The translations under genes and the position numbers were made by a program. Of a stretch of 64,000 nucleotides of DNA, positions 20,720 through 31,661 are shown in pieces (position 1 is the stretch's first letter; each line of letters begins with the position of its first letter). A model generated the notes under the pieces. The model was not told the origin of the DNA and ran no database searches. It saw only the letters and a program-made list of their open reading frames with translations. Origin of the DNA: Seison nebaliae (taxonomy: Eukaryota); NCBI GenBank assembly GCA_023231475.1, contig JALJEE010002631.1, positions 1 through 64,000 of the forward strand. Reading direction: 5' to 3'.

Positions 20720-23700
20720 ATGGCACGAACGAAACAAACGTTACATTTCTTATGAATTCAACTAAATTATAATATATAATTAGAGCACGGAAGGGGAAGA
20801 AAGGGGCTGGAGTAATTATCAAACAACAAAAAGAACCGGACGATGAAGATAATTCTGATGAAAGCGAACCAATTGAAAAAAAACAACATGAAGTTTATTT
20901 CAATTTACCTACAAACGTTCAGGAAAGTGACGCAATAATAAAAAAATTTATTGTTACTTCAAATTATTGTAATTAAATTATAAAACCTGTTTCATGGAAG
21001 AAAACTATCGACGACGATTGGAGTAATTATGGTGAGTCAGCAACGAAATTCCATTTCCATGACGTAAAAATTCTGAATGATTATCTCCTTTATTGGATCC
21101 ATGATGAGACGAAAAAGAGAACGAATATTTTTCCCAAACTGAAATACCTCTGTGTTCCTAGTCAGGCTTACATAACTCATTACGCATATAACATTTGTGG
21201 TATTGTTGTTGATAACTCGCATAAATTAGTTAAAATTTTTTTAATAACAATTATCAATTGTTGTCTCACTAAATAATGTTAGAGTTTGGAACGATTCCAT
21301 CAAATCTCCATTTCTCATCATGATACTAAATTGAAACATTCGAGTGATTCGACAGCGTTCGCCGTTGAAATTCATCAAACGGAATACGGTCAGAAATCTT
21401 TGTGTAATATTTTGATGAAAATGAATATTGCCAGTTTTCTTATTATTTCTCTATTGGTTATAATTTAAATGTTATCAGTTCAGTCAAATATCAAATCGAA
21501 CGAGATGTTCTATTCATATGATTTAGATTATAAGTTTACACTCAATTTCTCCAATCTTCCCAACAAACATCAATTGTCGAGAAAACAAACAATCGATTTA
21601 GTTTGGTTGGATTGTGAGAAAGATAATTGTCGAGATAAATTGAAAGAACTTCTCGTTGAATTATATTCGATCAAAGTTTTAAAATTGTCAATTTTGAATA
21701 TTCAAAACACTAAAAATATTTAGGGTACTGAAGGGATCATTTTTTATGACGTTAATAAAACATTGTTGACCGATGAACAATTCAAAGAGATTTTAACGAG
21801 TATTGTCAAAGAACATCAGTCAGAAATGGAAAAGAATTTACGAACAAAATATCCGCCGGACAAGTTCCTTTCATTTCATAGTTCCCACAATAATTACGTC
21901 ATCTTAACAGAACATTTACATTAATGGAACAATTATCAGCTTCTCATCTTGTCCAACGATTGATGTTTTGTGGAGAGTTCTTGAACAAATTTCAATCTCA
22001 GAAATGTCTCTTGACAACTAAAGAAGTTTTTCTTCAAATTTCCAATTATTAAAAATTCTCATTTCTTCATCAGAATGTGAAAGAAAAGTTTATGGAATTA
22101 TGTAAAACGATGGACGATAAGATGTATCATTTGAAAAGTGAATTTAATTTATATAAATCAATTTACACATTCGATGAATTGTTGCAAGAATTATATTTCA
22201 GTTATATCTTTCCGTATAATTATTATTCAATTTGAATTTGTCTTATAGAAAGAGTGGAAGAATCTTTAGTTAATTGTAGATTATTAATCTTTCGTTTATG
22301 TGAGATGGTTAGATTCATTCATATCTTTTATAAGAAAAAATTTTCGCATATTTCTAATTTGTAAACATTTCAGGGTGTTTGGCATTACATTAAAGAACCA
22401 TTTAGTCGATCAACACTCAATTTCGATTCACCAGATGCATTGAAATGTCAGAAATTTTCAAATGATTTAGTAATCGTACAAAAAGCCAAGTTCATGATGT
22501 TAATTGAACGGATTAAAGATCTAAAGATAATGGACTGTAATTGGAAGAATGTTTATGGAATCATTTCAAATTTCAAAACCTTCCAAGATGGTGGTGTTAA
22601 CGAAGTTGTTAGATAATTATTTTCTTACGATTTCATTGAGAAATTGTTTGTTAGGGATTGTGGAGTGAATGTTTATTGCGATTAAATATCGTCTCACCAA
22701 CTCCGAGAAAATTAGTGGAATATGTTGAAATTAATGATAAGATTCTCTCGTCGGTGGTTGAAGAAGTATCGGAAAAAAATGATGATTCGGCATTCAATTC
22801 ATTTTATTTACCGAAATCGAAAAAATTTATATTTTCTCCCGTCAATCAAGAAATTGTTAATGATTTATAGCATTTTCAATTTTAACATCGATTTAAATTT
22901 TAATATGGATTTAGGTTGATTATTATATGGGAATAAAAGAAGAAAAATCGTCGAAGAAGATAAGTGGAACGCCAATTTTTTTGGAATACAAACGTGTTTG
23001 GTATCTAACTTTAGCATTGACGAAATTATGGAAAGAAATTACGAATATATTTGTCTTTTCCGCAAATGGTTCACTATTCACAGAGTATTCTTATACGAAT
23101 AATTTTTTATTGTTTTCAGGATTAATTTCTAAAGGTGAAGATTCTGATGAGAAAAGTATTACTAATGTCGAAATAATATATTTGTGTTCTACACACCTCA
23201 TATTTCGAATTGGTTGTATCGATTTCGGTTTGCAAATCAAATGGGATGTCGGCGACATAAAATCATCGATCATTCATTCAGGTTTTACTCATTTCTGATT
23301 AGTAGAAGATTATCTTTGTTCGAAAGATGAACTAATCTTAACATGTCGGACGTTGAATCCGAATCGAACAATGCAAAACTCCGATACTCTTGATGCCAAT
23401 TTCTTACAATATTTCAGTTCAGTTATCGGTGAAATTACGACAATCATTTCGGCACTTTTAAAGGATATGGAATTGGAGGAATATTATAAGGAATTTGGAG
23501 CCGATATAAAATTTAATAACAGTTTCATTATTTAGTCTTTTCGTTTCTAAATTAGTTTTAGGTATTCCATTTCTCACTCATCAGTTTAAGAAGGACATTT
23601 GTCAGAAATGTGGTATCAATTCAGTTTATCATCGAATTTATTTCGTTAGATGATTTATCCAAATTGTTTCTGTTAATAATATCCAATTTTTGAAGAAAAG

Positions 23701-29700: not shown

Positions 29701-31661
29701 GAAAAAGATGCTTTATCCGAATTGATGATCAATAAATTATTGGCATTATCTAAAAATCACATCAATAAAGTACTTCCGTTGATCTACAGTGAAAATCAGG
29801 AATGGAAACAAACTGATTTTTATTTTCGAGTTAAGGATGTGAAATTTATTAAAATGAATAAAACGAAAGAAGAAGAAAAGAAAGATAGTTTAGTTCAATT
29901 GGAAACGAGAACAAAAGAAATTATCCATGAAGAAGAAGTTGTAACGGAACAGGATTGCTTCATCAGTTACGCTTGGGCTGATGTCAAAATGAAGAATGAA
30001 AGTTTTTTTTGTACATATAAAAACTAATTCTATCAACGAGATAAATGTAGATCTGTTGAATCCGTTGCAGATTCATAAAGCGATTGTTGAAAATAAAATA
30101 TCTTGTTGGCTCGATCGAATTCATTTGAAGAATAACGTCATTAGTGATATTAGGAAAGGAATAGATAAATGTAAATTATTCATCGCTTGTTTATCGGACA
30201 ATGTTTTCTTCTTTAATTTCATTTTTATAATATTAATCATCCATTATTTTTAGTATTTGAAATCAGATGTATGTAAAAATGAATTTTATTATGCTATAAA
30301 GAATTGCAAGAAAGACGCCGCTATATGTTTCGTCGGAAATGAAAGTAAACGATTTCGTAATTCGGAAATTAGTTTATCTTTATAAACTTTAATTAAAAAT
30401 CTTACAATTATTGTTAGATTTCCTATGTGGAGCATCGAAAATTCCTGAATTTAATTTCACCGTATTTAACCCAATCGAAAATTTAATTAATCATATTCAT
30501 TCAACTCTGAAAAATCATCAAGCTCCTAACAACATAATTCCACCGACTGACAATTCCAACATTTATCATCAACAAACCATTGAATGGATTCAACGAACAT
30601 TTCTAAAAGGATTAAGTTCAACTAAAATTCGATTACCCCGCTTATTTTTACTAGACTATTTGGAGGAAGAAAAAAAAGTTAAACTAATTAAAATACGTTT
30701 AAATTCACAATTTAATTTAAAATTTATAGTTTTCTTTCAACATTTTATGTGAACATGAGAAAGTTTGATTTTTAGAACAAAATGATTTTAGGATAATTCC
30801 CGTGATAATTTGTCCTTTTCAGAATTGGCATGTCGTCAAAAAGGATGATACCAGAATAATGATTAACGAAGAGATGAACGAAATCAAAAAATTTACCGTT
30901 TCTTATCTCTACAAAATATTGAGGATATGCAAACACTCCGATAATTTTAAATCAATAACATCATCAACAAATATTGACGAAGTATTTCAGGAACTCGAAA
31001 AGGTTTTTCTAATAAAATCAATTTTATCTTTTTCCAATTAATAATTTCCCCTAATTTATTTGTAGCAAATCACCGAACATTTCAGTCAAGTTTAAATCTT
31101 TCTTTTTTTTTAATTCTTAAAAATTCTTTTTTTTCATTTAGTCAACAAGTGCAAACGTTGAAAGCAAAGAACCGTTATTGGATTTACCGAATGCTTATCT
31201 AAAATTGTTAGAAATAATTGATCATAAAAAAATCAAAATAAATTCATTGAAAGAGTTTCATTTAGTTTTTTATAATTGAGAGAAATAATTCTGTTATAGA
31301 TGTCGAACTCTTGATGGAAAGACTTTGTGGTTGTGTATGGATCATATTAATGAAACAAATGCGTCAATCTTAACATCTGCCACCTCAACCGTTATCAACG
31401 ATAGTTCTATTAAATTAAAAAATTTGTTTTTGAAAGAACTGGATAATTTTGAGACTTTAGGTTTCATTTTTTCATCAAATGAGTTTAACTTTTATTTTTT
31501 AAGAACCGAAACAACCGTTACCGGTTCTGAAGCCTCAACCAAAGAAAAACAAACCATTACCCCAAATTAAACGTTCAGCTAACGATAACAAAAACGAGAC
31601 ATCGAACAAATTATCCCAATCACAATTAGGTGATCGTACAATTTTATCAATTGTAAAATAA
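20720..31661 (+). CDS. Giant ROCO protein: H3-tail-like N-terminus, SAM-like domain, MBT repeat, LRRs, ROC GTPase, COR, TIR domain(s); >30 exons
   Basis: Manual splicing keeps one open frame from ATG 20720 through the ROC domain. MBT: GMLLEAVDRLNVHLLCVATI...RIHFDG|WTDRFDY. LRRs: 26750-27620. ROC: KLMLVGTGGAGKT|SL, TDGIDI, WDFAGQTVYYNTHQFFL, VGTHLD. COR: P.AW...VVNPQW, LVPCLLP, LPTGLFNRL. TIR: DCFISYAW...CWLD...IRKGIDKCKLFIACLS. 3' exons are less rigorously phased; stop at 31659-31661. Confidence 0.8.

What the first reader, a model, noticed from the sequence alone, without database searches (positions are those of the whole stretch)
20720..31661. One polypeptide joining an H3 mimic, SAM-like domain, MBT methyl-lysine reader, LRR-ROC-COR and TIR: candidate lysine-methylation-gated innate signalling switch
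Seen: 23 consecutive short GTT..AG introns can be removed with consistent phase from ATG 20720 to the ROC P-loop. This links the H3-like tail, a SAM-like segment (~23450-23645), an MBT repeat (~25140-25520), LRRs, ROC and COR, followed by TIR-like regions (~29440-30360). Established: MBT repeats bind mono/di-methyl-lysine, ROC-COR is a dimerising GTPase switch, and TIR domains signal or cleave NAD+. Inference: the protein carries both a methylatable peptide and a reader for it. It could be auto-regulated in cis or trans, or act as an integrated decoy for pathogen effectors that target histone tails. I do not recall this architecture being characterised, but cannot verify novelty without a search.
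Basis: partly seen in the sequence, partly recalled or inferred. Interest (0 to 1): 0.85.

Follow-up and report, generated by a model that had tools for sequence, protein, structure and literature searches.

The report
Histone-tail bait on invertebrate ROCO-TIR protein
This invertebrate gene is predicted to encode one 3,083-residue protein that starts with an exact copy of the first nine residues of histone H3 and ends in a GTPase switch with a likely NAD-cleaving domain; the same short histone tail was likely gained separately in clam, scallop, snail and worm relatives, so it is likely a bait for histone-attacking enzymes, though nothing has been tested.

Summary
Observation mostly confirmed. 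An unbiased splice search gives one open frame, 20720-31661, with 34 introns, all GTT..AG (3,083 aa); null sequences reach at most 1.6 kb. H3 residues 1-9, one MBT repeat with an intact-looking pocket, LRR, ROC, COR and two TIRs (the second keeps the conserved Glu) are there. The SAM call is not supported: that segment aligns to the end of a degenerate second COR. No RNA run was available. MBT-LRR-ROC-COR-TIR is an old invertebrate family, already noted in Aplysia. What I did not find in print is the tail: H3 residues 1-8 start 5 of 63 full-length members (window, clam, scallop, periwinkle, annelid), which do not form a clade (AU p 1e-5). Three of the five lack MBT and four lack K9, so the tail does not depend on a cis reader. 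The annelid copy also carries a Rac1-like domain. Best reading: a swappable bait on an intracellular ROCO-TIR sensor (0.45). The cis MBT switch is possible here and in the periwinkle (0.2). The scan's earlier notes hold H3-tail mimics on other DNA, but none with this family.

The parts
20720..31661 (+). Whole gene model: 35 exons, 34 GTT..AG introns of 40-66 nt, 3,083 aa
   Evidence: no RNA support available
20720..20793 (+). Met plus histone H3 residues 1-9 (ARTKQTARK), split by intron 20740-20783; followed by a short Lys/Gly-rich and then an acidic stretch
   Evidence: only open junction of 7; residues 1-8 also start homologs P0022, P0111, P0117, P0220/P0281
21001..23172 (+). Divergent N-terminal region (about aa 64-633), in the place where homologs have F-box-type LRRs and the first part of a degenerate ROC-COR; no domain assigned here
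   Evidence: no blastp or curated Pfam hit; only weak co-linear profile matches
23173..23638 (+).
   Evidence: 15.2 bits on a 75-sequence family N-half profile, 60 shuffles at most 1.9; hhalign 62.8%, E 7e-5; family N half against canonical COR 98.9%, E 1e-17
23851..25083 (+). Beta-rich-looking segment and low-complexity linker before the MBT; unassigned
   Evidence: no Pfam hit
25143..25522 (+). Single MBT repeat (aa 1196-1301) with pocket residues Asp1206, Cys at +8, and Phe/Trp/Phe at spacing 0/+3/+7
   Evidence: Pfam; best PDB matches L3MBTL1 and L3MBTL3; spacing as dSfmbt Asp917, Cys925, Phe941, Trp944, Tyr948, with Phe in Scm (PMC2693881)
26752..27640 (+). Leucine-rich repeats
   Evidence: Pfam LRR_8 E 8e-9 and LRR hits in the next exon
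27707..28335 (+). ROC GTPase; P-loop split by intron 27754-27803; G3 and G4-like motifs present
   Evidence: Pfam Roc E 9e-15
28348..29307 (+). COR-A and COR-B
   Evidence: Pfam E 1e-26 and 3e-18
29442..29868 (+). TIR 1, lacking Glu at the register where TIR 2 has it; likely not catalytic
   Evidence: Pfam TIR_2 19.1 bits, below cut-off; alignment read by eye
29953..30464 (+). TIR 2 with Glu2745 (codon 30281-30283)
   Evidence: Pfam TIR_2 24.5 bits on one exon; Glu in 140 of 142 aligned rows, 2 gaps
30739..31366 (+). Family C-terminal Cys/His domain; the model ends without the CaaX-like motif of most homologs
   Evidence: 73.7 bits on a 69-sequence family profile; Cys at -4 in 116 of 167 homologs, in none of 23 alternative 3' splice paths

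Best explanation
The gene is predicted to encode one protein of an old invertebrate LRR-ROC-COR-TIR-TIR family, and its exact copy of the histone H3 N-terminus is likely an integrated bait: an enzyme that modifies, cuts or grabs H3 tails would hit it, and that would likely trip the ROC-COR GTPase switch and bring together a TIR domain predicted to cleave NAD+. Shown: the open frame, the domains, the tail, and its scattered presence in five members. Inferred: separate gains under selection; Met removal exposing Ala1 as in H3; a role in immunity; activation through ROC-COR pairing; TIR 2 as the enzyme and TIR 1 as a scaffold.
For: Tail at residue 2 in 5 of 63 full-length members; 5 changes needed, all forced by well-supported branches; monophyly rejected, p-AU 1e-5 for all five and 7e-76 for the four homologs. 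Identity is 8 of 8 over H3 residues 1-8 in all five and mostly stops there. In the window an intron lies inside the tail. The periwinkle tail is in two separate annotations. The annelid member has a Rac1-like GTPase (E 5e-58) right behind the tail; Rho-family GTPases are common targets of bacterial enzymes (recalled). Other members carry different add-on Pfam families, such as PF00622, PF01477, PF00168, PF10243, PF00754 and TPR families. All four tail-bearing homologs end in a CaaX-like motif, which points to membranes rather than chromatin (inference). Bacterial effectors that methylate H3K4 or acetylate H3K9 are reviewed in PMC7819608 (passages). ROC-COR proteins with LRR sensors and TIR effectors were predicted as counter-invader systems in PMC8195603 (passage). 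Glu-dependent cADPR production by non-TLR animal TIRs is shown in bioRxiv 10.64898/2026.04.20.719644, whose Fig. 3 legend lists LRR, Roc and COR among the architectures (section 8; figure and supplement not seen, so which protein is unknown).
Against: No experiment links this family to immunity or the tail to activation. The tail is absent from 58 of 63 full-length members. The window model lacks the CaaX motif. The same start occurs on unrelated non-histone frames: about 10 of 120 metagenome matches, by my reading, so it may be a general docking peptide. The four homolog tails rest on automated annotations whose DNA I could not fetch; three are single records. The periwinkle case came from a search whose query contained the tail, although its best-scoring stretch lay outside the tail. 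Many losses from a tailed ancestor cannot be excluded without a root. The window protein is a long branch.
Confidence: 0.45

Rival explanations
1. Docking peptide: the tail is a ligand for the host's own H3-N-terminus readers (PHD, WD40, BIR or import factors; classes recalled) and places or regulates the protein, with no sensing of invaders. It would replace the basic N-terminus that many members have.
For: Human H3 N-terminal mimics bind PHD and Tudor readers and NuRD in vitro (PMC8166343, abstract and section 12). The conserved span, residues 1-8 with a free N-terminus, fits that reading mode. The same start is on unrelated proteins. 32 of 82 members with complete N-termini have 5 or more Lys in residues 2-16.
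Against: The mimics in that paper need only a Z-R-X-K motif and are enriched in chromatin proteins, whereas these keep 8 of 8 residues on proteins that mostly end in CaaX-like motifs. It does not explain the Rac1-like domain behind the annelid tail.
Confidence: 0.25
2. Cis methyl switch: a host methyltransferase marks a lysine of the N-terminus, the protein's own MBT binds it, and this gates ROC-COR and TIR. The ancestral substrate would be the Lys-rich N-terminus, with the H3 tail as one version.
For: Pocket residues are intact in the window and in 25 of the 27 homologs matched by the pattern (the other 2 were out of register; the pattern itself required the Asp). MBT repeats bind mono- and dimethyl-lysine with low sequence selectivity (PMC2693881). 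The periwinkle protein has tail and MBT. A Lys-rich or H3 start is seen in 23 of 28 MBT members against 9 of 35 without.
Against: 3 of 5 tail-bearing proteins lack MBT. The MBT label needs only 2 changes on the tree and gives 1-2 independent contrasts, so the Lys-rich link cannot be tested. K9 is not conserved. Scm, a related reader, binds at only about 500-800 uM (PMC2693881).
Confidence: 0.2
3. No function or wrong model: start exons captured by chance from abundant H3 genes, annotation joins, or two genes here.
For: No transcript evidence. Residues 64-633 have no significant homology to the family. The clam tail resembles H3 over about 16 residues, as a recent capture would.
Against: The open frame far exceeds nulls. 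The family profile places aa 634-760 and everything from the MBT onward in the family order. Five scattered members of one family have the same eight residues at the same position.
Confidence: 0.1

Closest known systems
Invertebrate (MBT)-LRR-ROC-COR-TIR proteins, e.g. Aplysia LOC101848126 (P0033; PMC9334734) and Trichoplax ROCO proteins (PMC4104024, Fig. 1 legend lists MBT and TIR)
   Same: Same domain order from MBT to TIR; 37-46% identity over ROC-COR for full-coverage hits. The window gene is a member.
   Different: Those papers give domain lists only. The passages I read do not mention an H3 tail, the degenerate second COR or the CaaX-like end. The window copy is divergent and lacks CaaX.
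Littorina saxatilis XP_070207364.1 (P0281)
   Same: H3 residues 1-8, MBT, LRR, Roc, COR and TIR in one annotated protein.
   Different: Q at K9; CaaX-like end; sits among gastropod MBT members whose other rows lack the tail. Annotated as uncharacterized.
Plant NLR receptors with integrated decoy domains (concept recalled; only search listings seen)
   Same: Repeat sensor, nucleotide switch and TIR output with a variable add-on that copies a host target.
   Different: The switch is a ROC-COR GTPase, not a STAND ATPase; the host is an animal; the bait is an 8-9 residue peptide; no effector is known.
H3 N-terminal mimicry proteins (Chen et al. 2021, PMC8166343)
   Same: Meets the iM-Z-R-X-K rule at the N-terminus.
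   Different: A much longer exact match, on a signalling GTPase-TIR protein instead of a chromatin factor.
Prokaryotic AP-GTPase (Roc)-COR counter-invader proteins (Kaur et al. 2021, PMC8195603)
   Same: LRR, Roc-COR and C-terminal TIR layout, predicted defence role.
   Different: Bacterial; variation described at the effector end; no MBT or histone mimic in the passage read.

Membership tests
ROCO proteins | Tandem Roc and COR domains | tested here: met
   Pfam Roc, COR-A and COR-B above cut-off in one exon frame
ROCO proteins | Intact P-loop and G3/G4 motifs | tested here: met
   P-loop differs at one position from the form in 127 of 168 rows; G3 and G4-like motifs present
ROCO proteins | GTP hydrolysis and COR-mediated pairing | not testable with these tools
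   needs biochemistry
Invertebrate MBT-LRR-ROC-COR-TIR-TIR family | Co-linear homology from MBT to the C-terminal Cys/His domain | tested here: met
Invertebrate MBT-LRR-ROC-COR-TIR-TIR family | N-terminal LRR plus degenerate ROC-COR half | tested here: inconclusive
   only aa 634-760 scores above shuffles, and only with the 75-sequence profile; the MBT-subfamily and rotifer profiles did not beat shuffles
Invertebrate MBT-LRR-ROC-COR-TIR-TIR family | C-terminal CaaX-like motif (common, not universal: 116 of 167) | tested here: not met
Methyl-lysine-binding MBT repeat | Asp, small residue at +8, and three aromatic cage residues | tested here: met
   Asp, Cys, Phe, Trp, Phe
Methyl-lysine-binding MBT repeat | Binding of mono- or dimethyl-lysine | not testable with these tools
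   needs a binding assay
SAM domain | Match to a SAM profile | tested here: not met
   no SAM hit for the two exon pieces at E up to 5; pieces were scanned apart, which lowers sensitivity, but the segment aligns to the family's degenerate COR end
Catalytic TIR domains | Conserved Glu in helix C (its catalytic role is recalled, not mapped on a structure here) | tested here: met
   TIR 2: Glu in 140 of 142 rows; TIR 1 lacks it
Catalytic TIR domains | NAD+ cleavage or cADPR production | not testable with these tools
   needs an assay
H3 N-terminal mimicry proteins | iM-Z-R-X-K at the N-terminus | tested here: met
H3 N-terminal mimicry proteins | K4 methylation and reader binding | not testable with these tools
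   needs an assay
NLR with integrated decoy | Central STAND ATPase | tested here: not met
   the switch is Roc-COR; not filed as an NLR
NLR with integrated decoy | Variable add-on that copies a host target | tested here: met
   tail in 5 scattered members; Rac1-like domain in one
NLR with integrated decoy | Activation when an effector acts on the add-on | not testable with these tools
   no effector known

The most novel reading that the evidence does not exclude
Invertebrates have a GTPase-based counterpart of plant integrated-decoy receptors: ROCO-TIR proteins that repeatedly pick up baits, above all the histone H3 N-terminus, to detect pathogen enzymes aimed at chromatin and to answer with TIR-made nucleotide signals or NAD+ loss. 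In MBT-bearing members the protein would read methylation of its own bait.
Probability: 0.3. Interest if true: 0.92.

Novelty: new variant of a known kind. Interest (0 to 1): 0.72.

Why it matters
If true, it is a guard on the histone code in animals: a sensor that reports the activity of histone-attacking enzymes, not microbial patterns, built on the LRRK2-type switch. Repeated gain of the same eight residues in separate lineages makes a sharp, cheap test with synthetic peptides, one MBT repeat and one TIR domain. Even if the bait idea fails, a large family found in Trichoplax, molluscs, annelids, rotifers, a nematode, hemichordates and lancelets has a near-invariant TIR Glu, a duplicated COR and a CaaX-like end, and I found no functional study of it.

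Tried and rejected
SAM domain: rejected. Novelty of the MBT+LRR+ROC+COR+TIR layout: rejected. One origin of the tail inside the family: rejected by AU tests. A 93-nt intron at 30898-30990: dropped. A CaaX end by other splicing: none of 23 paths. Tail-MBT or Lys-rich-MBT co-evolution: too few independent contrasts. RNA evidence: no RNA holder listed; the first lay showed only short chance pieces, the second unspliced contigs. No whole genome is held, so paralogs in this organism were not surveyed. The shuffle control printed the wrong column and was redone. A word-based search with the clam N-terminal half found 2 proteins only. The ESM Atlas search with the tail gave unnamed short clusters under 0.9. 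The TIR 2 exon had no meaningful PDB match. Literature: 10 searches; no listing described an H3 tail on a ROCO or TIR protein. The library lacks most subscription papers, and I saw no supplements, where such architectures could be tabulated.
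Full report
Gene model. The window is AT-rich animal DNA (DSL and DIX genes nearby). A splice-aware search from ATG 20720 gave one open frame to 31661. Repeated with no preference among GT donors and a codon model trained on other genes of the window, it used 34 introns, all starting GTT, for 3,083 aa. 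Under the same splice rule the reverse strand stays open for 631 nt and 30 Markov nulls for at most 1,551 nt, against 10,939 nt for the real strand. The join of tail to body depends on introns 1 and 2; intron 1 has a single workable form. Contigs from 4 of 4 runs laid carry 20500-23800 unbroken, but they are unspliced and may be the source. No RNA run was on record, so a single transcript is predicted, not shown.

Domains. Pfam on exon frames found MBT, LRR, Roc, COR-A, COR-B and two sub-threshold TIR_2 hits. The MBT matches L3MBTL1 and L3MBTL3 best. PMC2693881 (passages) names the dSfmbt pocket as Asp917, Cys925, Phe941, Trp944 and Tyr948, with Phe at the last place in Scm; the window has Asp, Cys, Phe, Trp, Phe at the same spacing. 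TIR 2 keeps a Glu found in 140 of 142 aligned rows; TIR 1 lacks it. The SAM call is not supported. The pieces gave no SAM hit, and aa 634-760 align to a family profile at 15.2 bits against at most 1.9 for 60 shuffles. That part of the family is a degenerate second COR (hhalign 98.9%, E 1e-17) followed by a Cys/His element. Two narrower profiles did not beat shuffles, and aa 64-633 remain unassigned.

Family. Three searches returned 167 proteins, mostly from molluscs, annelids, nemerteans, a brachiopod, rotifers, a flatworm, a nematode, hemichordates, lancelets and Trichoplax; a few distant ROCO hits are included in that count. A family-built profile finds MBT in 41 of 167. The Aplysia member with MBT, LRR, ROC, COR and TIR is described as a putative TLR with novel domains in PMC9334734 (passages); PMC4104024 lists MBT and TIR among Trichoplax ROCO domains (figure legend). 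So the core layout is known as a domain list. 116 of 167 end with Cys at -4; the window model does not. The window protein groups with rotifer sequences, on a long branch that the tree tool flags as unsure.

The tail. Three of the 167 start with Met plus H3 residues 1-8: Mercenaria P0022, Ylistrum P0111 and Owenia P0117. A full HMMER search with the clam N-terminal half added Littorina P0220, whose full-length annotation P0281 has tail, MBT, LRR, Roc, COR and TIR. Among 63 full-length proteins (68 selected, 5 left out for incomplete ROC-COR) five carry the tail; the tree needs 5 changes, all forced by well-supported branches, and monophyly is rejected. Separate gains are the simplest reading; many losses cannot be excluded without a root. 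Position 9 is K here and Q, R, A, Q in the others, so K4 is the only constant lysine. Two of five have MBT. The Owenia protein has a Rac1-like GTPase right after the tail. As a base-rate check, a metagenome scan for DNA coding the tail gave 120 matches in 118 loci, from 2 of 64 parts of the collection; 102 had H3 core motifs downstream and 18 did not, and about 10 of those read on as non-histone frames (one has MORN repeats). The tail is therefore not unique to this family. Five in 63 looks far above a per-gene background, but I could not measure that background.

Mechanism. The layout of repeat sensor, nucleotide switch and TIR output resembles predicted counter-invader ROC-COR proteins (PMC8195603, passage), and brown-algal ROCOs are also proposed immune receptors (PMC11378527, passages). 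Non-TLR animal TIRs make cADPR in a Glu-dependent way, and one figure legend lists LRR, Roc and COR among the tested architectures (bioRxiv 10.64898/2026.04.20.719644, abstract and section 8; figure and supplement not seen). Bacterial effectors act on H3K4, K9 and K14 (PMC7819608, passages). I therefore favour a bait (0.45). A Lys-rich or H3 start goes with MBT in 23 of 28 against 9 of 35 members, which suits the cis switch, but there are only 1-2 independent contrasts. Every step after the sequence facts is inferred.

Novelty. Ten literature searches listed no paper on an H3 tail in ROCO or TIR proteins; coverage is limited to open papers, and supplements were not seen. A preprint on TeTIR domains was checked by term search only and held none of my four terms. 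The scan's own notes hold viral and fungal H3-tail mimics and bacterial Roc-COR-TIR proteins, but nothing with this sequence or with MBT. Verdict: a new variant of a known, untested family; interest 0.72.

Noticed in passing
window 20720-31661: All 34 introns begin with GTT (GTTT, GTTA, GTTC) and are 40-66 nt; GTT is only 226 of 488 GT sites in the region. An unusual 5' splice-site rule; other genes of the window were not checked.
   Followed up: partly
homologs P0001-P0167: The family carries a degenerate second COR in its N-terminal half (hhalign 98.9%), which could pair with the active ROC-COR within one chain.
   Followed up: partly
homologs P0001-P0167: 116 of 167 end in a CaaX-like motif, so most are predicted to be prenylated; the window model is not.
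   Followed up: partly
P0117 residues 16-192: Owenia member: Rac1-like GTPase between the H3 tail and the family body; single annotation, DNA not checked.
   Followed up: partly
L079 1-1526 (minus strand): An H3-tail start lies upstream of a DUF4062/NPHP3-like frame (below cut-off); a four-intron path can link them (no null control). Possibly a second TIR-like protein with an H3 tail.
   Followed up: partly
L017, L044, L057, L067, L074, L093, L100, L111, L113: Non-histone-looking frames that start with H3 residues 1-8 or 1-9; L067 has MORN repeats and L017 is coiled-coil.
   Followed up: partly
window 33205-40695 (minus strand): Acetyl-CoA carboxylase as one 2,496-codon open frame in an otherwise intron-rich region.
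   Followed up: no
window 7995-8762, 11057-12409, 43154-44083, 47982-48398, 48796-50598, 51241-51654, 53841-54941, 62503-63441: Neighbours by Pfam: DSL/EGF, alpha/beta hydrolase, nucleotide-sugar transporter, AMPK beta, an LRR protein, ATG12, DIX-domain protein, trypsin-like. No sign of a functional cluster.
   Followed up: no
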